Counted from the first letter of the stretch, positions 18,746 to 33,807 are shown. The stretch: 64,000 nt of DNA from Candidatus Giovannonibacteria bacterium RIFCSPLOWO2_02_FULL_45_28 (GCA_001780725.1 MFIM01000001.1:19642-83641); one strand, 5' to 3'. Notes: generated by a model from the letters alone, not told the origin. Made by a program: numbers and translations.

Positions 18746-18746
18746 A

Positions 18747-19714: not shown

Positions 19715-19732
19715 TAACTTTATTTTAACATA

Positions 19733-20179
19733 TTACTGCACATTTCCTGTTGAGAATATTGTGATAACGCGGGTTTTGGAAGTATTCCTTTTTGAACGAA
19801 GAGTTACGGTACCGGAGGTCGTGGTTGTGCCGCCGAGTATGGAAAATACGGTATCAACCGCGCCGCCGGTTAAACTGATTGCGCTGATTTCAACTGGCGC
19901 CGGCAAAATATAAACTTCGTTTGCAGAATTTGAAGAGCTATAAACGGATCCTTTAAATAAAACGACTTTTGCGGTTTCAAAATGGACTCCGTAAGTTGTT
20001 TTATCTTGAGAGCCGATTGCTCTTGATCTGGCGTCTTTTAAAATGCCTACGATTGTTTCTCCGGCGGCCTGCAAATCGTTTGATTCGCGGAATACCGCAA
20101 AAGCAGAAAAGAGAATTGCCGCAATGGCAATAACGATGGAAACGCTTACTACCGCTTCAAGCAATGTGAATCCTTTCAT
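19733..20179 (-). CDS. type IV pilin
   Basis: MKGFTLLEAVVSVSIVIAIAAILFSAF (G|FTLLE prepilin cleavage motif). Confidence 0.7.
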   Translation of the reverse strand: MKGFTLLEAVVSVSIVIAIAAILFSAFAVFRESNDLQAAGETIVGILKDARSRAIGSQDKTTYGVHFETAKVVLFKGSVYSSSNSANEVYILPAPVEISAISLTGGAVDTVFSILGGTTTTSGTVTLRSKRNTSKTRVITIFSTGNVQ

Positions 20180-20183
20180 ATAT

Positions 20184-21473
20184 TTAAAATGCGCCGACTA
20201 AATTATACATTGGCGAGATCATGGAAACGGCGAAAAATCCCACTACAACCCCCATAAGAATCATTAGCGCCGGCTCAATAACCGTTGAAAGATCCTTGGT
20301 CGCCTGCGACACTTCGCTTTCGTAAAAAGAAGCGAGGCGCAGAAGCATTTGCGAAAGTTCGCCGGTTTCCTCGCCGATCCCTATCATTTCGCCAACAAGC
20401 GACGGATAAAGCTCTCCGGATGAAAGGAATGCCTTGGAAATCGTTTCGCCTCGCTGAATTTTTGCGCGCGCATCGTCCAAAATATTTTGATAAAGATGGT
20501 TTTGCAAAACTTCTTTTGTGATAGAAATCGCTTCCAAAATATCAACCCCCGAAGATATCAGCGAGCTTAAAGTCCTGCAGGTCCGGGCGGAGTTGAATTT
20601 TTGATTAATTCCTTTTATGACAGGCAGGTGCGTAAACAGCCAATCAAGCTGCGTTTTTCCCATTTTTGATTTTGCCCAGCGATATGCTCCGTAGCCTGCA
20701 ACCGCTGCTCCTGCAAGCAAAATCAGCCCGCTTTGGAGAATTGATTGGCTTACAAAAATAATCAATCTGGTTGAAAGCGGAAGCTGTACTTTTAATTCTT
20801 CAAAGGTGGTAATAAGCGTCGGAACGACGTAAATCAACATCAAAATTCCTATGCCGACCATGGCGATCATAACGATTACGGGATAAACCATGGCTCCGCG
20901 CACCTTTCTCCTAAGTGCATAGTCTTTTTTCAATTGCAGCGCTATTAGTTTTAATGATTCTTCCAATTTGCCGGATTTTTCTCCGGCACGAACCATCTCC
21001 TGGTAAAATTTTGGGAAAACGGTTTTATGCTCCCCTATGGCGTCTGCAAAACTTCGGCCATTTTTGATTGCATCTGTTATTGCCAGAATTACGGTTTTAA
21101 ATTTGTCATTTTGGGTCTGCCTTGCCATCACTTCCAGCGCCTTTGACAGGCTCACGCCTGCCCCTATCATAACCGCGATGTTGCGCGTAAAATTCAGTTT
21201 TTCTTCAAGAGAAACTCTTTTAAGAAACGATGGAATATAGTCGTTTATTTTTTTGCTCCGCCAGCCGACAGACTTGTCCGCGCCGGTTTCCGAGATAAAA
21301 ATCGGCAGCACCCCTTCCGCACGCAACGCGCGCGCAAGATCATACTTGTCTTTCGCCTCGCGGTTGCCGTCCATGTCATTTCCGCTCTTATCTCTGGCCT
21401 TATAGTGATACAGAGGCATGAAAGTATTGATCAAGCCCTGTAACAGCATGCCTGGTTTGTTTGCCGGTGTCAC
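20184..21473 (-). CDS. pilC: type IV pilus platform protein PilC (GspF family)
   Basis: 429 aa, two GspF repeats with TM segments; overlaps the glyRS 3' end, so the true start is probably an internal Met. Confidence 0.85.
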   Translation of the reverse strand: MTPANKPGMLLQGLINTFMPLYHYKARDKSGNDMDGNREAKDKYDLARALRAEGVLPIFISETGADKSVGWRSKKINDYIPSFLKRVSLEEKLNFTRNIAVMIGAGVSLSKALEVMARQTQNDKFKTVILAITDAIKNGRSFADAIGEHKTVFPKFYQEMVRAGEKSGKLEESLKLIALQLKKDYALRRKVRGAMVYPVIVMIAMVGIGILMLIYVVPTLITTFEELKVQLPLSTRLIIFVSQSILQSGLILLAGAAVAGYGAYRWAKSKMGKTQLDWLFTHLPVIKGINQKFNSARTCRTLSSLISSGVDILEAISITKEVLQNHLYQNILDDARAKIQRGETISKAFLSSGELYPSLVGEMIGIGEETGELSQMLLRLASFYESEVSQATKDLSTVIEPALMILMGVVVGFFAVSMISPMYNLVGAF

Positions 21474-22695
21474 GGTCGCGGATGGTTACAGTATCGTCTT
21501 CCAGAGTTTGGTAGTCAATTGTCACGCACCAAGGCGTACCGATTTCGTCTTGCCTCCTGTAACGCTTGCCAATATTGCCGATGTCGTCAAAAACAGTTGA
21601 GTACGGATTATTGGTTGTGGAATTTTTAGGTTGGCAAAGACCGTTGTAAACTTCATTTGCTTTCGCCATAATTTTTTCTTTATTGGAAACCAAAGGAAAC
21701 ACGGCGACTTTGACCGGCGCCACGGCCGGTTTAAGCGCCAAATAAACTCTCTTTTCTCCGCCAAGCTTGTCTTCGCGGTAAGCCGACAAAAGCACAGCCA
21801 AAATGGTTCTCTCCAGCCCGAAAGTCGGCTCAATTACATGCGGAATAAATTTTTCCCCGGAGGCGGGGTCGGTATACCTCAAATCAACCCCAGAATGCTC
21901 CATGTGGCGCAGGAGGTCGTAATCTCCGCGATAAGCCAGGCCATAGAGTTCTTTTTTTCCAAAAGGCCAGTCAAATTCAAAATCAATCGTGCGTTTTGAA
22001 TAATGCGCGCGATCTCCTTCGGGTACCTCAAGTTCATGCACTTTTCCTTTGTCTATGCCGATTTTTTCTATCCACATCCGGATTTCTTTGCGCCATTTTT
22101 CAAAATATTTTTTCCATTCTGATTCTCTGACAAAATATTCAAACTCCATCAAATCAAACTCGCGGATGCGGAAAAGAAAATCCCTTGGCGCGATTTCGTT
22201 CCTAAAAGCTCTGCCGATCTGAGCGATGCCGAAAGGCAAGTTCGGCCGCATAGTATCCAAAATGTTTTTAAAATTAACGAACATCCCCTGTGCAATTTCC
22301 GGCCGTAAATATACATCTCCGGATTTAAACATAAGATTAAATTGTTTTGGCTCGGAAAGCGCACCGCCGCACTCTGGGCATTTTTTCCCGGAAATTTCAT
22401 CCTGCCGAAATCTTTTTTTGCATTTTTTGCATTCAACCAATGGGTCGGCGAATCCTTCCAGATGCCCGCTTGCCTCCCAAACTTTTTCCGGCATCAAAAC
22501 GCTGGAAGCCAGCCCGTACATTTCATGGTGCGCGCGCACAAAATGATTCCACCATAATTCTTTTATATTGTAAGCAAGTTCCGCGCCCAACGGCCCCAAG
22601 CTCCAAGTGCCGGCAAGCCCTCCGTAAATCTCCGAGCCCGGAAACACAAATCCGCGCCGCTTTGCCAAGCTTACGATTGTTTCCAGGCTTACCAT
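21400..22695 (-). CDS. glyQS: glycyl-tRNA synthetase (class II, alpha2 type)
   Basis: GLAYRGDYDLLRHMEHSGVDL...FIPHVIEPTFGLERTILAVL. Confidence 0.85.
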   Translation of the reverse strand: MVSLETIVSLAKRRGFVFPGSEIYGGLAGTWSLGPLGAELAYNIKELWWNHFVRAHHEMYGLASSVLMPEKVWEASGHLEGFADPLVECKKCKKRFRQDEISGKKCPECGGALSEPKQFNLMFKSGDVYLRPEIAQGMFVNFKNILDTMRPNLPFGIAQIGRAFRNEIAPRDFLFRIREFDLMEFEYFVRESEWKKYFEKWRKEIRMWIEKIGIDKGKVHELEVPEGDRAHYSKRTIDFEFDWPFGKKELYGLAYRGDYDLLRHMEHSGVDLRYTDPASGEKFIPHVIEPTFGLERTILAVLLSAYREDKLGGEKRVYLALKPAVAPVKVAVFPLVSNKEKIMAKANEVYNGLCQPKNSTTNNPYSTVFDDIGNIGKRYRRQDEIGTPWCVTIDYQTLEDDTVTIRDRDTGKQTRHAVTGLDQYFHASVSL

Positions 22696-22704
22696 ATTTT
22701 GAGA

Positions 22705-24573
22705 TTATCGCACAACTTTTTTCTGATTAAAAGTGACGCTCGGATCATCCGGCAAATCGGTAGATATAGGGTCATCACGCGCAGAAAGCGTCTGGTTTGT
22801 AAAAGTGTCGCGGCCCGAAACTTCAGCCGCATTAATAATTGTCGGAGAAGATCCGATTTGATTTTGTGAAGGAATAAGTCCGACCTGAAAAGCGGCCTCC
22901 AGAGCCGGCCGCAAAAAACCGGTGCCGGCGGGCACCCTGCCGGCGCGCCAGACAATTTCACCGCTGACCTTTTCAAACGAAATGTTCGCGTCAGCCGGTT
23001 GAATCACGTTTTTAAAACTCATATACGGAGGGAGGGTAGATTTAACGACGACGCCATCCAAATCGTTCACCATGTTAGCCAAAGACAAAATGATTGTGTA
23101 GGTTGTTTCCTCGCCCACTTTCGGCGGCAGGGGGCCGGCATTTTGAATAACGGAATTATTATAAAGCGCCCGCGAAACCACTTGTAATTTTGATGATACT
23201 TTCATTTCATAATTGCCGGATCCGGAAACATCAACCCCCTCAAATCCCTGTACAACCACGCCCGGATTAAAAATTGCGCCGATCCGAACGCTTGGCCGCG
23301 CAGCATCAGTAGCAAGAACCAAATTGCTCTTAATTTTAAACGAAAAAGTAACGCGTTCTTCTTGATTTGGAAGCAACACCGCAAACGGCTTATGGGTGGA
23401 AGAGTTCCACACAACGCTTTTAGACGACTCTCGGAAAGCGCCGCTGTCAACTCGCAAAGAAGCAAAGTCCACCGCGTTTCCATTAATTGACGCCTCCAAA
23501 GATGCGTTTTTAATTTCTTGAGGTAAATTATTTCTTAGGGCAATATCAAAAGAAATTGTATCGCCCGGAAAAGCCGCATATTCATTTGATCCGTTTGCCA
23601 AAATATTTACAGACAAAAACGGCGCGCGCAAAATTATGGTTTGGGAAGATTCGTCATAAGCTAAAAATGAGTTTTTCGCCGGATCAAAAATACCTATTGC
23701 TGCTTTGAAAATCTTTGATTCCAAATCTGCGCCATGAACCTTGCCTTTTAATTTTATCTTCCCGGATTCGGCCGGCGGGAGATTCCCCAAGCTCCAAATA
23801 TTTTTGTTTTGCGGCAAGGGCGAAGGGCTTGCGGAAACGAACTCAAAGCCGTCCGGAAAATTCATTTGCGAATAGAGATTTGCAAGGGCCTGATCGGCTT
23901 GCGAGACGTAATTAACCTCAAACTCCACTTCTTGTCCTATTCGCAAATCAGACGGCAGATTAAAAGAAACAGTCACCGGAGAAAGAGCTACGGAAAACTC
24001 AAAAGACGCGTCTACCGCAAAAATCGCGCTTGCCCCAGCCGGCCTGTACTCCAAAACAGCAGAAACTTTTTTGGTCGTTCCTCTGCCGCCAAAAACATAA
24101 GCGTCGAAATTTTCCGCAATGCTCTCTCCGGCGCGCACGCCTCCCAAGGATCTGCGTTCACGAAAAATTCCTTCAGGGCGCGGCCCAACAACCGGCGAAG
24201 CGTCATTCGGGAAATTAAAAACCAAAACAGCGTCTTCCAGCATTCCATTGCTTTGATTGGCGATTTTAACCCGCCAGCTTATGCGGTCTCCGCTTTTTAT
24301 TTCGCTGATGCCTTCTATTTTTACGTCAACCGCCCGCGACCTAAAAACCGTAGGCGAGCCGAAAACAAAAAAAACGATGCCGATAACAAATAAAATTAGC
24401 CCCGCCGCAACCGCCCATAAAAACCAGCGGCTCTCTTTAGCCGTTCTCTGTGTTTCCTGCCAAAAAACTGACCCAGCCCTTTTGGTCCTTGTAAGCTCTG
24501 GCGGAACCATTCTTTCTCCAAATGTTTCTTTTTCCTTATAGAGCCGTTTTTTTAGTTCTTCAAGTGAGGCCAT
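22705..24573 (-). CDS. large membrane-anchored hypothetical protein (probable surface protein)
   Basis: 622 aa; N-terminal TM FLWAVAAGLILFVIGIVFFVF then long beta-rich extracellular region. Confidence 0.35.
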   Translation of the reverse strand: MASLEELKKRLYKEKETFGERMVPPELTRTKRAGSVFWQETQRTAKESRWFLWAVAAGLILFVIGIVFFVFGSPTVFRSRAVDVKIEGISEIKSGDRISWRVKIANQSNGMLEDAVLVFNFPNDASPVVGPRPEGIFRERRSLGGVRAGESIAENFDAYVFGGRGTTKKVSAVLEYRPAGASAIFAVDASFEFSVALSPVTVSFNLPSDLRIGQEVEFEVNYVSQADQALANLYSQMNFPDGFEFVSASPSPLPQNKNIWSLGNLPPAESGKIKLKGKVHGADLESKIFKAAIGIFDPAKNSFLAYDESSQTIILRAPFLSVNILANGSNEYAAFPGDTISFDIALRNNLPQEIKNASLEASINGNAVDFASLRVDSGAFRESSKSVVWNSSTHKPFAVLLPNQEERVTFSFKIKSNLVLATDAARPSVRIGAIFNPGVVVQGFEGVDVSGSGNYEMKVSSKLQVVSRALYNNSVIQNAGPLPPKVGEETTYTIILSLANMVNDLDGVVVKSTLPPYMSFKNVIQPADANISFEKVSGEIVWRAGRVPAGTGFLRPALEAAFQVGLIPSQNQIGSSPTIINAAEVSGRDTFTNQTLSARDDPISTDLPDDPSVTFNQKKVVR

Positions 24574-25073
24574 AATGTTAGTATAGCTTCATTGTGATGT
24601 TCGGGCAAAGAATCGCCGTAGCCTTCGTGCGCGAAAAATTCGCGCAAGAATTGCAGCGCTCGCTCTTCGTCAGTACCAGCCAAAGGCTGGCCAGCATCGG
24701 GCTGGAAAAAATCAATCGCCATTGAGAATAATTCTTCGTCTTTCGCGCCGGGCAAAACCACTAAATCAATCGTTTTTAGAATTCTTCCGGCTGTGGAAAT
24801 CCTATTCGCATCTAAAAACCAGTTGCCGAACCCTGAAATTACCTCCGCATCCGTCATCGTCGGCATTCGTTCGCCGTTTTTAACAAATTGAAGTCGTGTG
24901 TGGTTCAAAATATCCAAATGCGCGTTGAGTTTTGAAGCCGTTTTCCGCGCGCCCTTTGCCAGCGCATCCATTTTCCCAAAATCTTTTGTCAGCGCCCTCA
25001 CCAAAAAATCCGCCTCCCCGTACGGCGTTTTTTTCATAATCAATCCTTCGGTTTTGAAATACGCGCTCGGCAT
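24552..25073 (-). CDS. recO: RecO-like DNA repair protein (short)
   Basis: N-terminus TEGLIMKKTPYGEADFLVRALTKDFGKMDALAKGARK matches the RecO OB-fold consensus; only 173 aa. Confidence 0.5.
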   Translation of the reverse strand: MPSAYFKTEGLIMKKTPYGEADFLVRALTKDFGKMDALAKGARKTASKLNAHLDILNHTRLQFVKNGERMPTMTDAEVISGFGNWFLDANRISTAGRILKTIDLVVLPGAKDEELFSMAIDFFQPDAGQPLAGTDEERALQFLREFFAHEGYGDSLPEHHNEAILTLWPHLKN

Positions 25074-25078
25074 ACTTA

Positions 25079-28000
25079 TTAGAAATAAATTCGAAATCTA
25101 TCACCAGAAAGCTTTTGAATATCGCTTATATTTGTCTCTTTTTTAATCCTTGCGCTATATTTTTCGAGAACATCCAAAATCTCAGCAGGAGAAGCTTCTA
25201 TTTTGGCTGGCATTTTTTGTTTAGGCGTTAGTCCCGCTTCTTTTCTTGCGGCCTGAATTTCGCGGATAAGGTCGCGGAGAATGCCTTCTTCGCGAAGTTC
25301 GGGAGTAATGGTTAAATCAAATTCCACCAACTTATCAGCCAAATTTTGCGAAAAAACAACATTTTTTACATTTATTTCCTCTTTTGCTAATGCCAAATAA
25401 TCAGCCCCCAAATTTTTCCACTGGAATTTATCACTTGCACGCATGGAATTAAGCGGTTGTCTTATTTTTAGATTTTGTTTATGCCTTTCTTCAAGCGCTG
25501 CCGCAACTAAATTTCTGGTTTCGTCCATATTTTCCAGTAATTTTACGTTTTTATTTTTGCTCTTTGCATTTTGTTTTGGCCAATCCTCCAAATGAACACT
25601 TTTGTTAGACGCCGAGCTTCTAACACTTTGATAAATCTTCTCCGCTGTAAACGGGGCGAAAGGTGCCAGGAGTTTTGAAACTTCGCCAAGCAAATACGCC
25701 AAAACCGTGCCTGTTTCCTTGGCTTCTTTAGAATTTTCTTTCATCACACCGCGAATCCTTCTGATGTACCAATGCGAAATATCATCAACCACAAAATTTT
25801 CCAGCTCGCGCGCCGCGCCAACGATGTCGTAAGCGTCCAGTTTTTTTGTGACAGAGTTGGTTACTTCGGAGAACTTTGCCAAAACCCATTTATTTATTAA
25901 CAATTTCTCACTTCCGATTTCTAACTTCCCACTTCTAACTTTGTACATTTTCCAAAACTGTAAGACATTCCACAAAATCATAAAAAATCTCCGCGAGGCG
26001 TCTTTGATGTCTTCTTCCTTAAAAAGCTTGGAATCCCACGGCTGGTTTATCGTAAAAAAATACCATCTAGTCGCGTCAGCTCCGTACTTTTCTATGAGCA
26101 TCATTGGATCCACCACATTTCCCAAAGATTTGGACATTTTTTTGCCGTTTTTGTCCAAAACATGCCCAAGCGATATTACATTTCTATAAGGAGCGCTTTT
26201 TCCCAAAAGCGTGCCGACAGCCAGGAGATTATAAAACCACCCGCGCGTCTGATCCACCGCTTCGGTAATGTAGTCGGCAGGATAGTGGAAGTCCGACTTC
26301 CTTTCGGAAGTCGGACTTCCAAGAAACGACCAATGCGCGCTCGCAAACGGCATCGCTCCCGAGTCAAACCAAACGTCAACAACCTCCGAAACTCTCCGCA
26401 TTTCGCCTCCGCAACCACATCGGAGTCTTATTTCATCAATAAAAGGTTTATGCAAATCCAGAACAAGATTTTCGTCGCGCGGAATCTGAGAAAAAATCAG
26501 CTCTTCAAATTCGGCCGTCACTAAAAAATCTTTTCCGCGGCGCAATTTTTCTTCCATGGATTCCTCGTTGTTTTTTCCTTCCGCCGCCGTCCAAAGCATC
26601 CAAATAGGATATTCGTGGCTTATTATCAAGATAGTTTTGTTTTGATAGCGCAATTCCATTTCAGAAATCGCAGAGAAAATGCGGTTTTTTAACTGAGTTA
26701 AGGTTTCCCCTTCCGGCGGAGCCTTAGTAAATTTTTCAATCGGATTTTTATAAAAAGCGTGGTAGCGCGCCGGATCTCCTTCGGAAAAAATGCCGGTGTT
26801 GATTTCGGAAAGTCTTGGGTCAAGCTTGATGTTTAATAAAGAAACCCCCGACACTTCTCCAATTATTTCCGCCGTTTCTTTGGTCCTTAAAAACGGCGAT
26901 GCGAAAATTAAATCGGGCTTCCCGCCAGAGACGGGTCCGCCTATGGCGGATATTTTTTTCTTCAAAAGCCTAGCGCTTTTTTCCACCTGTTTTCTGCCAT
27001 TTGCTGTAAGATGATAGTGGTTTTTTGCAAGATTGCTGTTGGTGATATTTTTTACATTTGTTTCCGCCTCCCCGTGCCTCATAAAAATATATCTGTTGCC
27101 GGACGCAGTCGAGCGTTTTTTCAGCTCCTCCACTGAACCGATGGCCTCCCATTTTTTGCATTTTTCGCATTTCCAAACCGGCAACGGAGTACCCCAAAAC
27201 CGCTCGCGTGAAAACGCCCAGTTCTTTTTTTCTTTGAGCCATTCGCCCATCCGGCCGTTCTTGATGTGTTCCGGATACCAATTTATTTTTTGATTATTTT
27301 CTAAAAGCTCGGGCCGCACCGCGTTCACATCCACCCACCACGCCTTGCGAGCAAGATACATCAGGGGCGTTTTGCACCTCCAACAAAAAGGATAGTCGTG
27401 TTCGTAACTTTCGGTTTTAAATAAAAATCCTCGCGATTTTAGGTCATCAATAATTTGTTGGTTCGCATTTTTCCCGCCGGAGGCGGGTCCGCCTTTGGCG
27501 GAAAACCACTCGCCGTCCCAAGGATTTCCCGGTGTTTGCATCAGCCCGCGCTCGCTGGTTGTGGCAAGTACCGGCAAATCGTATTTTTTGGAGAGCTGAA
27601 AATCGTCATCTCCAAAAGCCGGCGCGATATGCACAATTCCAGTCCCCTCCTCGGTTGAAACAAAATCTCCGGCAACTACTTTGTACGGAGCGTTGTGCGA
27701 ATAAAGCGGCTCATATTTTAAATCAACCAGCTCACTACCCTTAATTTTTTTTAAAATTTTACAGTCTCCGCCGACAACGCTCGCTCTTGATTCGGCCAGT
27801 ATTAATTTTTCACCTCCCACCTCCAACACCACATATCCAATTTTTTGATTCACCGCTAAAGCAACATTTCCGGGCAAAGTCCAGGGAGTAGTCGTCCAGA
27901 CGAGGAAATAAGTTTTTTCTGGAATTTTTCCGCCAGAGGCGGACCCGCCTTTGGCGGAAAATTTCACATAAACCGATTCCTCTTTTACTTTTTCGTATCC

Positions 28001-28612
28001 CTGCGCAAGTTCGTGCGAAGAGAGTGCGGTGCCGCACCTCGCGCACCATGGGACAACTTTATAGTCTTCGTATAAATATTTTTTCTTGGCGAATTCTTTG
28101 ATAACCCACCAAAGAGATTCAATATAAGAATTTTCATAGGTAATATAGGGATGTGCCATATCTATCCAAAAACCCATCCGCGCCGTCAACTTCTCCCATA
28201 GCTCTTTATATTTCCAAACCGACTCTCGGCATTTTTTATTGAACGCGGCGACACCGTATTTTTCTATGTCTTTTTTGTTTTTAAGCCCCAGAGTTTTTTC
28301 TACCTCAACTTCAACCGGAAGCCCGTGAGTATCCCACCCCGCGCGGCGCGGCGCGTAATATCCCCTCATTGTTTTGTATCTTAAAACAACATCCTTGAAA
28401 GCGCGGCTCTCAACATGATGCACACCCGGAACACCGTTAGCCGTCGGCGGTCCCTCAAAAAAGACAAAGTGGTTTTGTTTACCCCTCGAAGCTTTAGCGA
28501 AGTAGGGCTTCCTTTGGTTTACCGACTTCTCAAAAGCCTTATTTTTTTTCCAAAATTCCAAAATTTCTTTCTCATCAAACATATGAAAATAGTAGCAAAA
28601 AAAGCCGCTCAT
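25079..28612 (-). CDS. ileS: isoleucyl-tRNA synthetase carrying extra insertions: a histidine-phosphatase-like domain, three palindromic mini-elements and two GAAGTC palindromes
   Basis: PPTANGVPGVHHVESRAFKDV, GWDTHGLPVE, KMSKSLGN; 1177 aa; insertion ...YIFMRHGEAETNVKN...ISHEYPI between the CEKCKKWE zinc region and DLHKPFIDEI. Confidence 0.9.
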   Translation of the reverse strand: MSGFFCYYFHMFDEKEILEFWKKNKAFEKSVNQRKPYFAKASRGKQNHFVFFEGPPTANGVPGVHHVESRAFKDVVLRYKTMRGYYAPRRAGWDTHGLPVEVEVEKTLGLKNKKDIEKYGVAAFNKKCRESVWKYKELWEKLTARMGFWIDMAHPYITYENSYIESLWWVIKEFAKKKYLYEDYKVVPWCARCGTALSSHELAQGYEKVKEESVYVKFSAKGGSASGGKIPEKTYFLVWTTTPWTLPGNVALAVNQKIGYVVLEVGGEKLILAESRASVVGGDCKILKKIKGSELVDLKYEPLYSHNAPYKVVAGDFVSTEEGTGIVHIAPAFGDDDFQLSKKYDLPVLATTSERGLMQTPGNPWDGEWFSAKGGPASGGKNANQQIIDDLKSRGFLFKTESYEHDYPFCWRCKTPLMYLARKAWWVDVNAVRPELLENNQKINWYPEHIKNGRMGEWLKEKKNWAFSRERFWGTPLPVWKCEKCKKWEAIGSVEELKKRSTASGNRYIFMRHGEAETNVKNITNSNLAKNHYHLTANGRKQVEKSARLLKKKISAIGGPVSGGKPDLIFASPFLRTKETAEIIGEVSGVSLLNIKLDPRLSEINTGIFSEGDPARYHAFYKNPIEKFTKAPPEGETLTQLKNRIFSAISEMELRYQNKTILIISHEYPIWMLWTAAEGKNNEESMEEKLRRGKDFLVTAEFEELIFSQIPRDENLVLDLHKPFIDEIRLRCGCGGEMRRVSEVVDVWFDSGAMPFASAHWSFLGSPTSERKSDFHYPADYITEAVDQTRGWFYNLLAVGTLLGKSAPYRNVISLGHVLDKNGKKMSKSLGNVVDPMMLIEKYGADATRWYFFTINQPWDSKLFKEEDIKDASRRFFMILWNVLQFWKMYKVRSGKLEIGSEKLLINKWVLAKFSEVTNSVTKKLDAYDIVGAARELENFVVDDISHWYIRRIRGVMKENSKEAKETGTVLAYLLGEVSKLLAPFAPFTAEKIYQSVRSSASNKSVHLEDWPKQNAKSKNKNVKLLENMDETRNLVAAALEERHKQNLKIRQPLNSMRASDKFQWKNLGADYLALAKEEINVKNVVFSQNLADKLVEFDLTITPELREEGILRDLIREIQAARKEAGLTPKQKMPAKIEASPAEILDVLEKYSARIKKETNISDIQKLSGDRFRIYF
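26919..26950. repeat. palindromic mini-element copy A in ileS
   Basis: ttcccgccagagacgggtccgcctatggcgga; in frame, encodes SAIGGPVSGGKP. Confidence 0.75.
27469..27507. repeat. palindromic mini-element copy B in ileS
   Basis: ttttcccgccggaggcgggtccgcctttggcggaaaa; encodes FSAKGGPASGGKN. Confidence 0.75.
27926..27962. repeat. palindromic mini-element copy C in ileS
   Basis: tttttccgccagaggcggacccgcctttggcggaaaa; two hairpins CCGCC-AGA-GGCGG and CCGCC-TTT-GGCGG; encodes FSAKGGSASGGKI. Confidence 0.75.
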
Positions 28613-28624
28613 GAGAACGGCTCA

Positions 28625-29365
28625 TTACTTGTATACATGGGCGTTGATCCCTATTGCACGCAAAATCGGAGATCGTTCATTGAAAGGTATAGATTTTGTG
28701 ACTTGATCCAAAAAATGGAACACGCTTCCGGCACCGCCTTCTTTAACTAGAAATGCGATATCCTCGTCTGTATATACACCGGGGAAAATTTTGTTTAATT
28801 TCTTCCAAAATCCATCCACATTAATCTCACCCATCTTCACACCAGCCTGTTTCATGCCAACTTCGTGGCAAGCGGCCCTATCGCCATTGGAAAACCGCAT
28901 TGTGACTTTATCACCCAACCCCAAAACCTCCGAAATGTACGCCGAGCCGATCTCGTTGCCTTGCTCTACGGTCATTGTGCTTTTTTGTGAAAACCACAAG
29001 TCGGAAAGGCGCTTCGCGCGCTCGTTTCCATTAAACCACCCCTCACGATAAGGATTTTCTGCCACGTCTTGTGGGTCCAACGGAACATCGGCTGGAATGC
29101 CAGCTTTCTCCCATCTCTTTAATAATTTCTTCGCGATTTTTGCCCGCCGAATAATTTCGTTGCCGAATTGTACCGCCTCATCCAGCGACATGCATCTTGA
29201 TGTTTCAAAAAATCCATCGGGCTTATCCAATGAAATTTTAATGTGTTGGCTGGGCTCTCCGAAACTGCCGGCATAATGAGCTATACAAATGTCGCCGTCT
29301 GGATTTTTATAAACAGTCATGTGGTGGCATCTGTATTTTTTCTCAAGATACTTGTTCATTTTCAC
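28625..29365 (-). CDS. hypothetical protein
   Basis: 246-aa ORF, no recognised motifs. Confidence 0.3.
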   Translation of the reverse strand: MKMNKYLEKKYRCHHMTVYKNPDGDICIAHYAGSFGEPSQHIKISLDKPDGFFETSRCMSLDEAVQFGNEIIRRAKIAKKLLKRWEKAGIPADVPLDPQDVAENPYREGWFNGNERAKRLSDLWFSQKSTMTVEQGNEIGSAYISEVLGLGDKVTMRFSNGDRAACHEVGMKQAGVKMGEINVDGFWKKLNKIFPGVYTDEDIAFLVKEGGAGSVFHFLDQVTKSIPFNERSPILRAIGINAHVYK

Positions 29366-29475: not shown

Positions 29476-29961
29476 TCATTTCCATCTAAGAACAACTTGG
29501 GCGACAACCAAAAGTAAGAATGCGATCCAAGTGCGGCCATCCGGCAAATGATTATAATAAATCCAGTTCATTATTGTAAAAGAAATGGGCGCGGCGCCCC
29601 AAACCAAAAATTGCGGGAAAAACAGATCCTGTCCGTGCCTTAATCCTTCGCTTAAATAAGCCCAGTTGAAAAGCATTCCTCCCAACATAAAAACAAAGAG
29701 TGTTGCAAAAATTCCGAAGCCGACAACATAACCGCCAAGCGACTCAAACTTCCAAAACTGAATCCATTCAAGACGAGCCGGAGCAAGTTTTAAAACGGGA
29801 TAGAAAAGCGATTTTGTTGCGCTCCAATCCATTAATTTAAAAAGTCCGTAATACATCACAACATTACCGCAAACTAAAATGAAAAAATTCAAAGCAGTTT
29901 TCAGCACTTCATGTTCTTGCTTTCTGATTCTAAAACTACCATCCAAAAAACAAAAAAACAA
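29476..29961 (-). CDS. hypothetical multi-TM membrane protein
   Basis: 161 aa, 4 TM segments. Confidence 0.3.
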   Translation of the reverse strand: MFFCFLDGSFRIRKQEHEVLKTALNFFILVCGNVVMYYGLFKLMDWSATKSLFYPVLKLAPARLEWIQFWKFESLGGYVVGFGIFATLFVFMLGGMLFNWAYLSEGLRHGQDLFFPQFLVWGAAPISFTIMNWIYYNHLPDGRTWIAFLLLVVAQVVLRWK

Positions 29962-30216: not shown

Positions 30217-31899
30217 TCACATCTTCTCCGGAGCAGCAATGCCCATCAAGTTGAGCGTATGGCGTATAGCATAAAGCGTGTGGTGAATCAGAAAAAGACG
30301 GACCTCGGTAAGTTCCGGATTTTTTGAATCCACTACGCGGTGTTTTTCGTAAAAATCAGTGAAGGTTTTTGCAAGCTCATAAGCATAGCGCGGCAAGCGG
30401 TGGACTTGATAGTCGTTTGCGATGTCTTCAATGATGTCCGGCAGCTGCAGAATTTTTTTGATGAGAGAGAGTTCTTCGGGTTTGGAAAGTAACTGCAAAT
30501 TAACCTCACCCCCCTTCCACCTCTCCTTCGTAATGAGAGGGGGGGAATGGGAAAGAGCATCTTTTCCTTTTTCTGATTTCGGATTTCGGATTTCGGATTT
30601 CCGCAAGATGCTGTAGCATCTTGCGGCGGCGTACTGAACATAATAAACAGGATTCTTCTTGCTTCTTTCCTTCGCCAAATCCAAATCAAAATCCATATGC
30701 GTATCCGGCGAACGCTCCAAAAAAAACCACCGCGCGGCATCTAGCCCAACCTCTTTTAACAAATCGTCCAAAGTTACAAATTCCCCGGCGCGTTTGGACA
30801 TGCGCACCTCTTTGCCGCCGCTAGTAAGACGCACCAGCTGCATAATAATGATTTTTAGCCTATTCTGGTCTACACCAAAAAACCCAATCTTTTCTGCAAC
30901 TTGTTTGATTTCTGCGTGATGGTCCGCGCCAACAACAGTAACAGCGACATCGAATTTGCGTTTCAAAAGCTTGTTTAGATGATATGCCAAGTCCGACAAA
31001 AGATAAGTTGGTTCGCCGTTTGATTTGACAACCACGCGCTCATCCCACCACAATGCGCCCTCTTTCTCTTTCGCCGCGCCATTCTTGACTAAAAACTCCA
31101 AAACTTTTTTTAACTCGCCCCTTTTCCGCAAGTTATTTTCTTCCGAAAACCAAACATCAAATTTTATTCCCGCTTTCTTGAGAGATTTTTTAATTTCGCC
31201 GAGTAAAATCCCAACAGCCCGTTTTGCAGACTTGCCTTTTAGTTTCTTTATGTAATCGCCTTTGTAATATTCTTCTTTTGCCGAAATTTTACCCTCTGCC
31301 GCCAAAATAGATTCACCCAAAAGTTTTATTTGATTGCCAGCGTCATTGATATAGTATTCGCGAGTAACTTTGTGTCCAGCCGCTTTTAAAATATTCGCCA
31401 GCGCATCGCCGTAAAACCCGCCGCGTCCGTTGGCCATTGTCAGAGGGCCGGTCGGGTTTGCAGAAACAAATTCTAGGTTGACCCGCCGCGCTGCTTGGGA
31501 AAACTTTGCCCTCCTCAACATCAGATGTTGAAAGCCACAAACATCGGATGTTTTCCCGGGCAATGTTGAGGAGAGCAACGCGGCAAAAAGCGCCTCTTTT
31601 TTTATACAAAAATTTAAAAATCCGGGACCGGCGATTTCAATTTGCTCGACAAATTTCAAGACATCCGACGTCTTCTCGGACTTAGACGTCGGACGTCTAA
31701 GTAGCATTTGTTTAAAGTCTTCCGCGACCTCGCGCGAATTTTTCTTTTCGCTCTTCGCCACCACCAAAGCAACGTTGGACGAATAGTCCCCGTGTTCCGG
31801 GTTCTCCGGCCGCTCAACAGAAAAAACCGCGCCGACGGCTTGTCCGCCTCGGGAGGACACAACTTTTTCAATTTCTTTCCGTATTAAACTACGAAACAT
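30217..31899 (-). CDS. argS: arginyl-tRNA synthetase with degenerate HIGH motif and in-frame repeat insertions
   Basis: N-terminal PENPEHGDYSSNVAL; FVSANPTGPLTMANGRGG where canonical ArgRS has PTGPLHVGH; MSKR in the KMSKS position; DALR-type C-terminus. Confidence 0.8.
   Translation of the reverse strand: MFRSLIRKEIEKVVSSRGGQAVGAVFSVERPENPEHGDYSSNVALVVAKSEKKNSREVAEDFKQMLLRRPTSKSEKTSDVLKFVEQIEIAGPGFLNFCIKKEALFAALLSSTLPGKTSDVCGFQHLMLRRAKFSQAARRVNLEFVSANPTGPLTMANGRGGFYGDALANILKAAGHKVTREYYINDAGNQIKLLGESILAAEGKISAKEEYYKGDYIKKLKGKSAKRAVGILLGEIKKSLKKAGIKFDVWFSEENNLRKRGELKKVLEFLVKNGAAKEKEGALWWDERVVVKSNGEPTYLLSDLAYHLNKLLKRKFDVAVTVVGADHHAEIKQVAEKIGFFGVDQNRLKIIIMQLVRLTSGGKEVRMSKRAGEFVTLDDLLKEVGLDAARWFFLERSPDTHMDFDLDLAKERSKKNPVYYVQYAAARCYSILRKSEIRNPKSEKGKDALSHSPPLITKERWKGGEVNLQLLSKPEELSLIKKILQLPDIIEDIANDYQVHRLPRYAYELAKTFTDFYEKHRVVDSKNPELTEVRLFLIHHTLYAIRHTLNLMGIAAPEKM
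30575..30624. repeat. (GATTTCG)x4 tandem repeat plus 10-bp-arm palindrome inside argS coding sequence
   Basis: gatttcggatttcggatttcggatttcc followed by gcaagatgctgtagcatcttgc; encodes RKSEIRNPKSEKGKDALSH in frame. Confidence 0.75.
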
Positions 31900-32273: not shown

Positions 32274-33437
32274 TCAATTGCTCCTTATCACATCCATCAC
32301 GGCGTCGTAAGATGCATCAATTACTATCGGGTCTTTCACAAAAACTTTTTTGGCGGCATCAGGATCTTTCCATGCCGCGCCCGTTAGAGTGCAGACAATT
32401 TTGCAGCCGTCCCAAATATAAATGTCGCGCGGGATTCTCTTGATTTCTTTTATTACTCCGGCAACCGAAATTGCCGAAGACGGCTCGCAGGAAACCGGCT
32501 CCAATTCGGAAATTAACGCGTAAGCCGCCATTATTTCCTCGTCATCAGCCATATCAATTTTACCGCTTGATTCATCCCTCGCGGCTTTTGCCTCTTCCCA
32601 TTTTGCCGGATTTCCTATGCAAATTGCGCTGGCGATAGTTTTAGGATTTTCCACCGCTCTTCCTAAAACAATCGGGGCCGCGCCGACGGCCTGGTAGCCA
32701 ATCATGTGCGGGCATCTTTTGGAGCGGCCTTTTATGTAATACTCTTTATAGCCACGCCAATAAGCCGTGATGTTCCCTCCGTTCCCAACAGGAATGAAGT
32801 GATATCTTGGCGCCTCGCCCAGTTCATCCACTATTTCAAAAGCGGCGGTTTTCTGGCCTTCCGTCCTGTGTGGATTAATGGAATTGACCAGTTCTTTGTC
32901 TTTCTCTCTCAATACAACCTCTCTTACAATTTCAAGCGCCTTATCAAAATTACCTTTAATTTGTATAACTTTTGCTCCGTGACGATATGATTGGGTTAAT
33001 TTTCCCGGCGCAACATTGCCTTCCGGCAAAACAACTAAACACCTCATCCCGGCCGCTTGCGCGTACACGGCAGCAGATGCGGCCGTATTTCCGGTTGATG
33101 CGCAAATAACAACCTTTTTGCCTCTGGCGGCAGCCATGGTGATTGCGGCAGTCATACCGCGATCTTTAAAAGATCCGCTCCCGCGATTTTCTCCCTCCAG
33201 CTTCCAATAAACTTCGGAGTGAAAGTAGGGAAAAAGATCGCGAAGATAATTTTCAAAATTTTTCGCGCGCCAAAGACAGGTATTGCCCTCAAACAAAGTG
33301 ATAATTTTCTCTTTGCCCATCCACTGAATTGCAGGCGGCATCCATTCCCAATATTTATGCAGGATGCCTTTATATGGTTGCGGCAGAAATTTGTGTTTTA
33401 TCATTTCAAACTCCTCAATCCCGCCAATAGCGGACAA
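32274..33437 (-). CDS. thrC: threonine synthase (PLP-dependent, fold type II)
   Basis: GSFKDRGMTAAI (Lys-PLP motif), ...ASTGNTAASAA. Confidence 0.7.
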   Translation of the reverse strand: MSAIGGIEEFEMIKHKFLPQPYKGILHKYWEWMPPAIQWMGKEKIITLFEGNTCLWRAKNFENYLRDLFPYFHSEVYWKLEGENRGSGSFKDRGMTAAITMAAARGKKVVICASTGNTAASAAVYAQAAGMRCLVVLPEGNVAPGKLTQSYRHGAKVIQIKGNFDKALEIVREVVLREKDKELVNSINPHRTEGQKTAAFEIVDELGEAPRYHFIPVGNGGNITAYWRGYKEYYIKGRSKRCPHMIGYQAVGAAPIVLGRAVENPKTIASAICIGNPAKWEEAKAARDESSGKIDMADDEEIMAAYALISELEPVSCEPSSAISVAGVIKEIKRIPRDIYIWDGCKIVCTLTGAAWKDPDAAKKVFVKDPIVIDASYDAVMDVIRSN

Positions 33438-33471
33438 GTCTGCCCAAACTCTAGCACCGAAGAAAATAATT

Positions 33472-33807
33472 TGGAAGTGGTGGGAGTTGAACCCACGTCA
33501 GAAGAACTCGTAATCTGCGTTTGACAAGCTTAGATTTTGCCCCTGTTTACTTGCGTTGATGCAGAGCTTTTATCAACACCGCCCCGCTTATAACACCCGC
33601 GATCTCTTAGCGAGAATCAGAGACGGATGGCTTACGCTAATGCGAAAGCAAGTCCAGTGCCGCCACCAGGTTCTAGACCAAGCGCGACACGAACTTTAGA
33701 AAATAAGTTTGCACTTATTGGTTGTGCGGATGATTAAAGAGGTTAACCGTACATCCTCTGCCTGAGCGCATGATTATTTGTTCTTCCTCGAATCCAATTT
33801 CACCCCC
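33472..33807 (-). ncRNA. ssrA: tmRNA (SsrA)
   Basis: 5' GGGGGTGAAATTGGATTCGAGG...; 3' ...GACGTGGGTTCAACTCCCACCACTTCCA; acceptor GGGGGUG/CACUUCC with G3-U70; internal ORF ending ...GCTTTCGCATTAGCGTAA (AFALA-stop); adjacent to smpB. Confidence 0.85.

What the first reader, a model, noticed from the sequence alone, without database searches (positions are those of the whole stretch)
25079..28612. Isoleucyl-tRNA synthetase carries an inserted histidine-phosphatase (PGAM-like) domain
Between the zinc-binding PLPVWKCEKCKKWE segment and the DLHKPFIDEI segment that precedes KMSKS, ileS contains about 200 extra residues. They start YIFMRHGEAETNVKN, an exact match to the phosphoglycerate-mutase/histidine-phosphatase signature [LIVM]-x-R-H-G-[EQ]-x-x-x-N. 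They continue with LIFASPFLRTKETAEII and a second His in ILIISHEYPI, matching the SHGG region. A catalytic-type phosphatase domain spliced into an aminoacyl-tRNA synthetase body is highly unusual. The gene is otherwise a normal type-2 IleRS (HIGH, GWDTHGLP, KMSKS). It also carries three palindromic mini-elements and two GAAGTC palindromes in frame.
Basis: partly seen in the sequence, partly recalled or inferred. Interest (0 to 1): 0.65.

Follow-up and report, generated by a model that had tools for sequence, protein, structure and literature searches.

The report
Phosphatase domain nested inside isoleucyl-tRNA synthetase
The isoleucyl-tRNA synthetase of this candidate-phyla-radiation bacterium really does carry a complete, apparently active histidine-phosphatase domain in one of its loops; in sister lineages the same phosphatase is a separate gene directly upstream of ileS, which suggests that the synthetase and the phosphatase work together, though on what substrate is unknown.

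Summary
ORF 25079-28612 (-) encodes a 1177-aa type-2 IleRS. A 215-aa His_Phos_1 domain (aa 503-717, Pfam E=8e-25) replaces about 6 loop residues between the two Cys pairs of the CP3 zinc knuckle.

It is not a chimera. All 120 best homologues (46-100% identity; Giovannoni-, Nealson-, Niyogibacteria, Paceibacterota) share the architecture. The catalytic set R512, H513, R576, E636, H666 is invariant or nearly so. AlphaFold models are confident.

New findings:
- In Staskawiczbacteria-like relatives the same phosphatase subfamily is a free 180-200-aa gene between argS and an insert-less ileS, in the window's synteny (argS-ileS-recO).
- Of 82 loci, 47 carry the free gene (44 with ileS downstream) and 35 have it embedded at the identical site.
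- The subfamily is also fused to ArgRS and to TsaC.
- In Gracilibacteria/Peregrinibacteria, 1-3 copies sit at other IleRS sites, alongside GNAT, HAD or P-loop kinase domains.

This points to a phosphatase functionally coupled to the synthetase. The substrate is unknown; my weakly supported best guess is a tRNA- or nucleotide-linked phosphate. No paper describing this was found.

Side notes: the HIGH motif is the non-canonical GVHH, and the gene carries four ~30-nt in-frame double-palindrome mini-insertions.

The parts
25079..28612 (-). ileS coding sequence, 1177 aa: type-2 IleRS with a nested His_Phos_1 domain
   Evidence: ORF. TIGR00392 853.9 bits. Pfam domains. AF2 model pLDDT 88.6, pTM 0.83. 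Foldseek to IleRS2 8C8V and 1ILE.
27107..28612 (-). IleRS N-terminal part, aa 1-502: first Rossmann half, CP core, CP1 editing domain, CP2, first half of CP3
   Evidence: Aligns to 1ILE residues 14-481. Editing-site residues T240-T242, H328 and D337 are invariant in 72 homologues.
26462..27106 (-). Inserted histidine-phosphatase (His_Phos_1) domain, aa 503-717
   Evidence: PF00300 E=7.8e-25. Domain model pLDDT 92.2. Foldseek top hits PspA 4IJ6, mycobacterial hydrolase 6S2Q, PhoE 1H2E, TM about 0.7. Absent from insert-less relatives at exactly this loop.
25079..26461 (-). IleRS C-terminal part, aa 718-1177: second half of CP3, second Rossmann half with KMSKS, anticodon-binding and C-terminal domains
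   Evidence: Aligns to 1ILE residues 488-790. Anticodon_1 and DUF5915.
27071..27079 (-). R512-H513-G514: the phosphatase RHG motif with the nucleophilic His
   Evidence: R and H are invariant in 120/120 homologues, G in 115/120.
26885..26887 (-). R576, second phosphate-binding Arg of the phosphatase (SPFLRTKETA)
   Evidence: 120/120 invariant.
26705..26707 (-). E636, the putative proton donor of the phosphatase
   Evidence: 119/120. Invariant in the mixed alignment A2.
26615..26617 (-). H666, second catalytic His (ISHEYP)
   Evidence: 120/120 invariant.
27158..27169 (-). C482-x-x-C485, first half of the CP3 Zn(Cys)4 knuckle, just upstream of the insert
   Evidence: Invariant in 72 homologues. 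CP3 zinc motif of T. thermophilus IleRS (PMC7191050).
26411..26419 (-). C732-x-C734, second half of the CP3 zinc knuckle, just downstream of the insert
   Evidence: Invariant in 72 homologues.
28415..28426 (-). G63-V-H-H66, non-canonical class I signature (G/AXHH) in place of HIGH
   Evidence: Aligned to HVGH of 1ILE. The family consensus is GIHH. The motif is described in PMC10485003.
26126..26140 (-). KMSKS motif, aa 825-829
   Evidence: K825, M826 and K828 are invariant.
27929..27958 (.). In-frame ~30-nt double-palindrome mini-element, peptide (A)KGGSASGGK, aa ~220-230
   Evidence: Mostly absent from homologues. Low pLDDT.
27473..27502 (.). In-frame double-palindrome mini-element, peptide SAKGGPASGG, aa 371-380
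   Evidence: Gapped in about 109 of 120 homologues; also present in P0020. pLDDT below 50.
26921..26950 (.). In-frame double-palindrome mini-element inside the phosphatase domain, peptide SAIGGPVSGG, aa 555-564
   Evidence: Absent from 119/120 homologues.
26287..26320 (.). In-frame GGAAGTCsGACTTCC doublet, peptide GSPTSERKSDF, aa ~765-775
   Evidence: Shared only with the closest homologue P0002. pLDDT below 50.
30217..31899 (-). argS (ArgRS, 560 aa), upstream member of the conserved argS-(phosphatase)-ileS-recO gene order
   Evidence: Pfam. Synteny with L001-L084.
24552..25073 (-). recO (173 aa), downstream member of the conserved gene order
   Evidence: Pfam RecO_N. Synteny.

Best explanation
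The gene encodes a functional type-2 IleRS. Its synthetic and editing sites are intact, and it has the GVHH variant of the class I signature. A complete branch-1 histidine phosphatase of about 205 aa is nested in the CP3 subdomain, between the two Cys pairs of the zinc knuckle, so the knuckle clamps the base of the inserted domain.

The phosphatase belongs to a Patescibacteria-specific subfamily. In sister lineages it is a separate 180-200-aa gene wedged between argS and ileS, often only a few bases from each. In this lineage that partner has become an internal domain of IleRS.

Shown:
- the architecture;
- its wide conservation;
- conservation of all catalytic residues;
- the alternation between neighbouring gene and internal domain;
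- recurrent independent fusions of the same subfamily to IleRS (at least four sites, up to three copies), to ArgRS and to TsaC.

Inferred:
- The domain is an active phosphomonoesterase that works physically together with IleRS (and ArgRS).
- It is not a glycolytic mutase.
- My preferred but weakly supported guess for the substrate (about 0.25) is a phosphate on the tRNA or on a nucleotide handled by the synthetase. An example is removal of a 2'/3'-terminal phosphate that blocks aminoacylation, which would be end healing in cis.
For: Architecture and reality:
- Pfam and NCBIfam hits.
- Alignment to 1ILE localises the insert.
- All 120 best homologues carry PF00300 together with IleRS domains.
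- Near-identical proteins (same 90%-identity cluster) occur in several NCBI, JGI and ENA assemblies.
- AF2 full-length model pLDDT 88.6; domain model 92.2.
- Foldseek places the body with IleRS2 and the insert with PspA/PhoE/Rv2419c-type phosphatases.

Catalytic competence:
- R512, H513, S572, R576 and H666 are invariant in 120/120; E636 and R644 in 119/120.
- The same residues are conserved in the free and otherwise-fused members.
- The insert is 46% identical on average against 60% for the IleRS body, which indicates purifying selection.

Origin and partnership:
- Free-standing homologues lie directly upstream of insert-less ileS in the same argS-...-ileS-recO-DUF11-classII aaRS synteny as the window.
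- Of 82 loci, 47 are free (44 with ileS downstream, 32 directly adjacent) and 35 are embedded at one identical site.

Recurrence:
- ArgRS::HP fusion P0214/L087, and TsaC::HP fusion P0151/L086.
- Gracilibacteria/Peregrinibacteria IleRS carry 1-3 HP domains at other sites. Copies are orthologous by site and only about 30% identical to each other, so they are old.
- A non-homologous HAD phosphatase occupies the same kind of site in P0465, and P-loop kinases accompany HP in P0466 and P0482. This suggests that phosphoryl-transfer chemistry is what is selected.

Not a mutase or another named enzyme:
- No NCBIfam equivalog cut-off is reached: dPGM_arch 74 against 225, CobC 57 against 163, PspA 44 against 350, SixA 34 against 75.
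- The domain is compact, with 30 residues between E636 and H666.
Against: - No experiment or geometry links the phosphatase active site to the tRNA path.
- Insertion sites in different lineages are scattered over IleRS (CP3, second Rossmann half, junction to the anticodon-binding domain). This argues for simple tethering rather than a precise active-site relay.
- No histidine-phosphatase family member is known to me to act on RNA ends (own knowledge, not tested).
- Gene order in Paceibacteria is generally conserved, so adjacency alone could be inertia.
- The ArgRS fusion could be a trivial read-through of neighbouring genes.
- CPR IleRS also hosts unrelated domains (GNAT, DUF559 endonuclease). 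IleRS may simply be a permissive host.
Confidence: 0.55

Rival explanations
1. Incidental fusion of a metabolic enzyme. The phosphatase is a small-molecule enzyme (a gpmB-like phosphoglycerate mutase or phosphatase, a phosphoserine phosphatase, or a broad-specificity PhoE). It merely shares an operon with argS and ileS in streamlined genomes and was fused or inserted without any functional link to aminoacylation.
For: - Sources annotate free members as 'broad specificity phosphatase PhoE' or K15634 gpmB.
- The nearest structures are metabolic phosphatases: PspA, PhoE, Rv2419c, CobC.
- Synteny in this region is generally conserved (rplT-rpmI-infC, smpB, pyrH, argS, ileS, recO).
- Scattered insertion sites suggest that geometry does not matter.
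Against: - A nested in-frame insertion 1.5 kb into the neighbouring essential gene is not a simple read-through.
- The same subfamily is fused at least four times to IleRS at different sites, with up to three long-diverged copies kept in one protein.
- It is also fused to ArgRS and TsaC.
- Among the 150 best representatives, about 100 are IleRS or IleRS fragments and the only other hosts detected were one ArgRS and one TsaC; five longer 'free' hits (233-289 aa) showed only His_Phos_1 in Pfam.
- The HP gene stays upstream of ileS even where the IleRS is of a different, roughly 42%-identical type.
- No equivalog-level match to any metabolic enzyme.
Confidence: 0.25
2. Protein phosphatase or regulatory module. 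The domain removes phosphate (Ser/Thr/His/Tyr) from IleRS or ArgRS themselves or from a partner. For example, it could reverse inhibitory phosphorylation by HipA-like or Hanks-type kinases, or it could sense a phosphorylated metabolite to tune charging.
For: - The histidine phosphatase superfamily includes protein phosphatases (SixA, PGAM5, Sts-1; own knowledge).
- HipA-family toxins are known to phosphorylate aaRSs (GltX, TrpS; own knowledge).
- P-loop/Zeta-toxin-like kinase domains sit alongside HP in some CPR IleRS.
- There is a weak SixA similarity.
Against: - No kinase partner lies in this window near ileS.
- The SixA score is far below cut-off: 33.8 against 74.5.
- No phosphosite evidence.
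- No PADLOC (defence) hit.
Confidence: 0.1
3. Non-catalytic structural or oligomerisation module. The fold is kept as a dimerisation or scaffolding device, for example to bridge IleRS and ArgRS into a mini multi-synthetase complex, and catalysis is irrelevant.
For: - Many His_Phos_1 proteins are dimers (own knowledge).
- The domain occurs on both ArgRS and IleRS.
- Multiple copies per protein.
Against: - All catalytic residues are invariant over 46-100% identity and conserved in the free and fused forms, which is not expected for a pure scaffold.
- Analogous replacement by a HAD phosphatase points to chemistry, not shape.
Confidence: 0.06
4. Artefact or selfish insertion. This would be an assembly chimera, or an intein-like or mobile element that is removed or is neutral.
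For: - Some CPR IleRS carry DUF559/Vsr-like endonuclease domains and even a Y1 transposase hit.
- The gene tolerates small palindromic in-frame insertions.
Against: - The architecture is found in at least 120 protein clusters and 35 species-representative genomes at the identical site.
- Near-identical proteins (same 90%-identity cluster) appear in independent assemblies.
- No GC or skew break at the borders.
- No Hint/intein domain in Pfam.
- The domain is well folded and packed in the AF2 model, pTM 0.83.
- Catalytic residues are under selection.
Confidence: 0.02

Closest known systems
Type-2 isoleucyl-tRNA synthetase (IleRS2), e.g. Thermus thermophilus 1ILE and Priestia megaterium 8C8U/8C8V
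   Same: The full IleRS body is present: Rossmann fold, CP core, CP1 editing domain, CP2, zinc-binding CP3, KMSKS, anticodon-binding and C-terminal domains. TIGR00392 is above cut-off. TM-score normalised to the target is 0.77-0.86. It shares the G/AXHH signature variant described for hyper-resistant IleRS2.
   Different: A 215-aa catalytic domain sits where Thermus has a 6-residue CP3 loop. There are also four ~10-aa palindrome-encoded loop insertions.
Small branch-1 histidine phosphatases: PspA (4IJ5/4IJ6), PhoE (1H2E), Rv2419c GpgP (4PZ9), CobC (6E4B)
   Same: Same fold (Foldseek probability 1.0, TM about 0.7). Same catalytic set: RHG, second Arg, Glu, second His. Compact size.
   Different: - Only 22-24% identity, and no equivalog cut-off is met.
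- The usual (Q/T)G-x-x-D flap motif after the RHG is replaced by an SxWPE / N-x-x-L-T-x-x-G region.
- The domain is embedded in, or encoded next to, an aaRS.
Cofactor-dependent phosphoglycerate mutase (dPGM, GpmA)
   Same: Same superfamily, RHG signature and N519 equivalent.
   Different: The domain is far shorter between the Glu and the second His (30 residues), has no C-terminal tail, and scores 74 against a cut-off of 225 for dPGM_arch.
NCBIfam NF040702 'isoleucine--tRNA ligase, N-acetyltransferase domain-containing', and the Gracilibacteria/Peregrinibacteria IleRS with nested GNAT, His_Phos, HAD or kinase domains
   Same: The same principle: an accessory enzyme domain nested in IleRS. His_Phos_1 of the same subfamily occurs there in 1-3 copies.
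   Different: Different IleRS subtype (PPFATGTPHYGH), different insertion sites, and different or additional domains. The window protein scores 307 against a cut-off of 1999 for NF040702 and has no GNAT domain.
Bifunctional RNase H / acid phosphatase (Rv2228c type, NCBIfam PRK07238)
   Same: A His_Phos_1 (CobC-like) domain covalently joined to a nucleic-acid enzyme. It is the second-best NCBIfam similarity for the insert.
   Different: A terminal fusion rather than a nested one, with a different partner. The score is 64 against a cut-off of 326.

Membership tests
Isoleucyl-tRNA synthetase (TIGR00392 ileS) | Whole-protein HMM score above the curated cut-off | tested here: met
   853.9 bits against 621.4.
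Isoleucyl-tRNA synthetase (class Ia, type 2) | Class I signature motifs HXGH (or the IleRS2 variant G/AXHH) and KMSKS | tested here: met
   G63-V-H-H66 aligned to HVGH of 1ILE. KMSKS at aa 825-829. The variant is defined in PMC10485003.
Isoleucyl-tRNA synthetase (class Ia, type 2) | CP1 editing domain with the Thr-rich peptide and conserved Asp | tested here: met
   W239-T240-T241-T242, H328 and D337 are invariant in 72 homologues. Aligns to the 1WK8/1UE0 editing domains.
Isoleucyl-tRNA synthetase (class Ia, type 2) | Isoleucine-specific aminoacylation of tRNA-Ile | not testable with these tools
   Requires an enzyme assay.
Histidine phosphatase superfamily, branch 1 (PF00300) | HMM score above the gathering threshold | tested here: met
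   88.1 bits against 21.7, aa 509-684.
Histidine phosphatase superfamily, branch 1 (PF00300) | Catalytic core: RHG His nucleophile, two Arg, second His, acidic proton donor | tested here: met
   R512, H513, R576 and H666 in 120/120; E636 in 119/120.
Histidine phosphatase superfamily, branch 1 (PF00300) | Alpha/beta fold of the superfamily | tested here: met
   Model pLDDT 92.2. Foldseek probability 1.0, TM 0.64-0.73 to PspA, PhoE, dPGMs.
Histidine phosphatase superfamily, branch 1 (PF00300) | Phosphatase or mutase activity through a phospho-His intermediate | not testable with these tools
   Requires biochemistry.
Cofactor-dependent phosphoglycerate mutase (dPGM) | Equivalog HMM cut-off, mutase-specific length and C-terminal tail | tested here: not met
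   NF038349 scores 74.4 against 225. TIGR01258 was not hit by the insert. There are 30 residues between E636 and H666.
Phosphoserine phosphatase PspA / alpha-ribazole phosphatase CobC / SixA | Equivalog HMM cut-offs | tested here: not met
   PspA 43.9 against 350, CobC 57.5 against 162.9, SixA 33.8 against 74.5.
NF040702 IleRS with GNAT domain | HMM cut-off and presence of a GNAT domain | tested here: not met
   306.8 against 1999. No GNAT domain in Pfam.
Intein / self-splicing insertion | Hint/intein splicing domain and splice-junction residues | tested here: not met
   No Hint, intein or LAGLIDADG family in the Pfam scan at E<=0.01. The insert is a complete His_Phos_1 fold.
Anti-phage defence components (PADLOC) | Match to any PADLOC model | tested here: not met
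   No hits for the insert, for free-standing P0304 or for the two ORFs between argS and ileS.

The most novel reading that the evidence does not exclude
CPR/Patescibacteria IleRS (and ArgRS) carry a dedicated phosphoryl-transfer module that acts on the tRNA itself. In some lineages this is a phosphatase alone; in others it is a phosphatase together with a P-loop kinase or GNAT domain. One possibility is that it strips a blocking 2'/3'-terminal (pyro)phosphate or cyclic phosphate from the CCA end before charging. That would be a tRNA end-healing or quality-control step built into a synthetase, and a new activity for the histidine phosphatase superfamily.
Probability: 0.17. Interest if true: 0.85.

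Novelty: new variant of a known kind. Interest (0 to 1): 0.62.

Why it matters
Aminoacyl-tRNA synthetases are among the most conserved enzymes. New catalytic domains nested in their cores are rare, and they usually mark added functions such as editing or signalling.

Here a catalytically intact phosphatase is tied to IleRS in three ways across a large part of the candidate phyla radiation: as a translationally coupled neighbour, as a nested domain, or in several copies. That is a Rosetta-stone-type argument for an unrecognised step associated with tRNA charging in these ultra-small, host-dependent bacteria.

There are practical consequences too:
- Metabolic reconstructions that count this domain as 'gpmB/phosphoglycerate mutase' may be wrong.
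- NCBI names many of these proteins only 'class I tRNA ligase family protein'.
- The pair of states, free gene against nested domain at one fixed loop, is a clean natural experiment in domain-insertion evolution.

Tried and rejected
- **Chimera or artefact:** rejected.
- **dPGM, PspA, CobC or SixA identity:** rejected at equivalog level.
- **Defence-system component:** no PADLOC hit.
- **Literature:** seven full-text searches with different term sets, plus reading recent IleRS evolution and structure papers, found no description of a His_Phos domain in IleRS. This covers only the held library.
- **The search for related loci with the broad alignment A2:** failed because it had no conserved stretch. 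It was repeated with the narrower A3.
- **Model coordinates:** not exposed. I could not measure the distance or orientation between the phosphatase active site and the synthetic or editing sites, nor dock tRNA.
- **Phylogeny:** neighbour-joining trees of the HP domain and of the IleRS N-part interleave embedded and free states. I could not decide between several insertion or excision events, exchange of ileS alleles, and poor resolution.
- **The ORFs between argS and ileS in the window (246 and 161 aa):** they are not homologous to the 214-aa ORF found at that place in L001 and have no Pfam hit.
- **Other phosphatase copies:** no second copy in the 64-kb window.

Full report

Yes.
- Pfam finds tRNA-synt_1 split in two, Anticodon_1, DUF5915 and, between the tRNA-synt_1 halves, His_Phos_1 at aa 509-684 (88.1 bits, cut-off 21.7, E=7.8e-25).
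- NCBIfam's ileS equivalog scores 853.9 against a cut-off of 621.4.
- Against T. thermophilus IleRS (1ILE), residues 14-502 pair with 14-481 and residues 718-1015 with 488-790. So 215 residues (aa 503-717; window 26462-27106) stand where Thermus has six.
- There is no compositional break at the borders.

Two details need correction. The PGAM signature has F510 at a position the pattern gives as [LIVM]. The 'HIGH' motif is G63-V-H-H66, aligned to HVGH of Thermus.

**2. It is not a chimera, and it is not rare in its own lineage.**
- All 120 best database homologues (100% down to 46% identity, 1060-1240 aa) carry PF00300 together with the IleRS domains. Where they are named, they come from Giovannonibacteria, Nealsonbacteria, Niyogibacteria, Paceibacterota and 'Patescibacteria group'.
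- The window protein's 90%-identity cluster includes records from several independent NCBI, JGI and ENA assemblies: Parcubacteria GW2011_GWC1_44_10, Giovannonibacteria and UniRef A0A1F5W919.
- Sources name these proteins only 'Isoleucine-tRNA ligase', 'class I tRNA ligase family protein' or 'hypothetical protein'.

**3. Anatomy.**
- The insert lies between C482-x-x-C485 and C732-x-C734, all four invariant in 72 homologues. According to PMC7191050, this zinc motif belongs to the CP3 subdomain of T. thermophilus IleRS, which links CP2 to the second half of the Rossmann fold. The zinc knuckle therefore clamps the two ends of the inserted domain.
- The editing-site residues (T240-T242, H328, D337), KMSKS and the other IleRS invariants are intact.
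- AlphaFold2 with a 72-sequence alignment gives pLDDT 88.6 and pTM 0.83. The only low-confidence stretches are the N-terminus and the palindrome-encoded loops.
- The body superposes on IleRS2 structures (8C8V TMt 0.77; 1ILE TMt 0.86).
- The insert modelled alone reaches pLDDT 92.2. It matches small branch-1 histidine phosphatases: PspA 4IJ6, mycobacterial hydrolase 6S2Q, PhoE 1H2E, Rv2419c and CobC. Probability is 1.0, TM about 0.7 and identity 22-24% (sequence-level).

**4. Is the phosphatase likely active, and which kind is it?**
- In the 120-sequence alignment R512, H513, S572, R576 and H666 are invariant. E636 and R644 are 119/120, G514 is 115/120 and N519 is 102/120.
- The insert averages 46% identity to the window sequence against 60% for the IleRS body. 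It evolves faster but is clearly constrained.
- No NCBIfam equivalog threshold is reached: dPGM_arch 74 against 225, CobC 57 against 163, PspA 44 against 350, SixA 34 against 75.
- The domain is compact, with 30 residues between the Glu and the second His.
- I therefore read it as a phosphatase-type member of an unassigned subfamily, not as a glycolytic mutase.

**5. Where it came from: the main new result.**

A scan of 1.84 billion representatives with the insert found 2084 relatives, 333 of them at E<=1e-10. The best 150 comprise:
- IleRS or IleRS fragments (about 100);
- free-standing proteins of about 190 aa that start with Met;
- one ArgRS with the domain at its C-terminus (P0214);
- one TsaC/Sua5 with the domain at its C-terminus (P0151);
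- IleRS of another subtype with two or three copies at other sites (P0245, P0256).

Looking up free-standing members on long contigs showed them directly upstream of an insert-less ileS of 972-986 aa. The order is argS-(hyp)-HP-ileS-(hyp)-recO-DUF11-like-class II aaRS. That is the same order as in the window, where argS is at 30217-31899, ileS::HP at 25079-28612, recO at 24552-25073, the DUF11 gene at 22705-24573 and the class II aaRS at 21400-22695.

A scan of one genome per GTDB species found at least 483 relatives. I classified the best 80 loci plus two metagenome loci by tblastn and ORF tracing:
- 47 loci have a free gene. In 44 of these ileS lies downstream on the same strand: 32 directly adjacent, 12 with a 0.6-2.1 kb spacer. 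argS usually ends 3-10 bp upstream.
- 35 loci have the domain embedded in IleRS, always at the same site.

A side-by-side alignment shows 7-20 residues in the free-gene lineages where the embedded lineages have 205-215. Staskawiczbacteria-labelled genomes have the free gene. Nealson-, Colwell-, Taylor- and Sungiibacteria, Pacebacteria and the window's Giovannonibacteria have the nested form.

Crude NJ trees interleave the two states; for example, free L079 groups with embedded L050 and L082 for both HP and IleRS. More than one transition, or exchange of ileS alleles, is therefore likely, but this remains unresolved. Free-gene loci include two IleRS types (about 42% and about 63% identical to the embedded ones), yet the HP gene keeps its place.

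**6. Recurrence elsewhere.**
- In L087 an argS::HP fusion is followed directly by recO, with no ileS at that position.
- In L086 a TsaC::HP fusion stands alone.
- Homologues of P0245 are IleRS of 1200-1860 aa from Gracilibacteria, Peregrinibacteria and Peribacteria. Nearly all have His_Phos_1. Many also carry GNAT acetyltransferase, DUF559 endonuclease, AAA_33/AAA_18/Zeta-toxin-like P-loop kinase or abhydrolase domains. One (P0465) has a HAD phosphatase instead of His_Phos_1.
- The copies in P0245 and P0256 are orthologous by site and only about 30% identical between sites, so they are old and separately maintained.
- At least four distinct IleRS sites host the domain: the CP3 loop (this window), after the second Cys pair, after the WFDSG helix, and the junction to the anticodon-binding domain.

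**7. Mechanism.**

The following is shown:
- a complete, conserved phosphatase catalytic apparatus;
- covalent or operonic linkage to IleRS across a large clade;
- independent fusions to three tRNA-related, adenylate-forming enzymes;
- analogous replacement by a HAD phosphatase.

From this I infer that the phosphatase is a functional partner of the synthetase.

The substrate is not known. I favour a phosphate on tRNA or on a nucleotide handled by the enzyme, for example a 2'/3'-terminal phosphate that blocks charging, for three reasons:
- The common denominator of the hosts is tRNA and ATP-to-AMP chemistry.
- Kinase plus phosphatase pairs are reminiscent of RNA end-healing enzymes (own knowledge).
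- IleRS and ArgRS need a free A76.

This guess is weak (about 0.25), for three reasons:
- No family member is known to me to act on RNA ends.
- The scattered insertion sites argue for tethering rather than a relay.
- I could not obtain model coordinates to test geometry.

The main rival is an unrelated metabolic phosphatase fused by genome streamlining (0.25). Others are a protein phosphatase or regulator (0.10), a structural module (0.06) and an artefact or selfish element (0.02).

**8. Comparison and novelty.**

The protein is a member of IleRS (type 2, G/AXHH subgroup) and of His_Phos_1. It is not a member of dPGM, PspA, CobC, SixA or NCBIfam's 'ileS_w_GNAT'. Nested accessory domains in IleRS are recognised by NCBI for GNAT only.

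I found no paper describing a histidine phosphatase in or next to IleRS. That includes a 2023 phylogenetic and structural study and a 2026 evolutionary survey of IleRS. The Pfam co-occurrence is visible in precomputed annotations, so the sequences are not unknown, but the architecture, its neighbour-gene origin and its spread appear undescribed. I rate it a new variant of a known kind, with interest 0.62.

**9. Side observations.**
- The GVHH signature is the G/AXHH form shown to give IleRS2 mupirocin hyper-resistance (PMC10485003).
- The four in-frame mini-elements are ~30-nt double palindromes (stem-loop-stem, twice) that encode about 10 extra residues in low-confidence surface loops. They are absent from most orthologues.
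- Elements of the same design occur in recO (24676-24705), in ORF 8719-9834 (8920-8951) and in another class I aaRS (11590-11628) of this window. They also occur in ileS and argS of other Paceibacteria, one of them exactly at the CP3 loop where the phosphatase sits here.

Noticed in passing
window 26287-26320, 26921-26950, 27473-27502, 27929-27958 (ileS); 24676-24705 (recO); 8920-8951 (ORF 8719-9834); 11590-11628 (ORF 9855-11963); also L003 9668-9697 and 10052-10081, L033 3671-3700, L019 5505-5534, L044 767-804: A class of ~30-nt 'double palindrome' elements (stem, 1-4 nt loop, stem', then the same again; e.g. TCCGCCnnnGGCGGATCCGCCnnnGGCGGA) is inserted in frame in housekeeping genes, especially aaRS genes. 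Each adds about 10 residues (e.g. SAKGGSASGGK) in low-confidence surface loops. They are absent from most orthologues, differ in stem sequence but not in design, and one in L003 sits in the same CP3 loop that hosts the phosphatase here. This is reminiscent of Rickettsia palindromic elements but much smaller. I know of no description.
   Followed up: partly
window 28415-28426 (aa 63-66): The class I signature is GVHH, not HIGH; the family consensus is GIHH. This G/AXHH swap is the one shown experimentally to make IleRS2 hyper-resistant to mupirocin (PMC10485003).
   Followed up: yes
P0404-P0490, e.g. P0404, P0406, P0465, P0466, P0482, P0417; locus L085: IleRS of Gracilibacteria/Peregrinibacteria/Peribacteria reach 1200-1860 aa. 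They hold nested GNAT, 1-3 His_Phos_1, HAD phosphatase, AAA_33/Zeta-toxin-like kinase, DUF559 endonuclease or abhydrolase domains. CPR IleRS seems to be a hub for nested enzyme domains.
   Followed up: partly
L087 6001-8070 (P0214); L086 977-2140 (P0151): The same phosphatase subfamily is fused to the C-terminus of ArgRS, in a locus where recO follows directly and ileS is absent. It is also fused to the C-terminus of a Sua5/YrdC (TsaC, t6A synthesis) protein.
   Followed up: partly
L001, L003, L006, L009 etc. compared with L005, L007, L008 etc.: Loci with the free-standing phosphatase gene contain two clearly different IleRS types: about 42% and about 63% identical to the insert-bearing IleRS in the N-terminal 490 aa. 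The phosphatase gene nevertheless keeps its position upstream of ileS, which suggests in-situ replacement of ileS.
   Followed up: partly
window 33061-33807 (-): ARAGORN reports a tmRNA (33472-33807) and an overlapping permuted-tmRNA call (33061-33563). The latter overlaps the 5' end of the PLP-enzyme ORF 32274-33437. In relatives smpB lies in the same neighbourhood.
   Followed up: no
window 28625-29365 and 29476-29961 (-): Two ORFs (246 and 161 aa) sit between argS and ileS, where relatives have the phosphatase gene. They have no Pfam or PADLOC hit and no similarity to the hypothetical gene at that place in L001.
   Followed up: partly
window 16874-21473 (-): A type IV pilus/T2SS-like cluster (T2SSF protein 20184-21473, a prepilin-type N-methylation motif protein 18747-19295, and large unannotated ORFs) lies downstream of the aaRS block.
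   Followed up: no
L003/L004 4799-5545 and 15258-16543: In a free-gene relative, a Y1 transposase sits between smpB and pyrH. A reverse transcriptase with a bAvd-like gene, resembling a diversity-generating retroelement, follows the DUF11-like gene.
   Followed up: no
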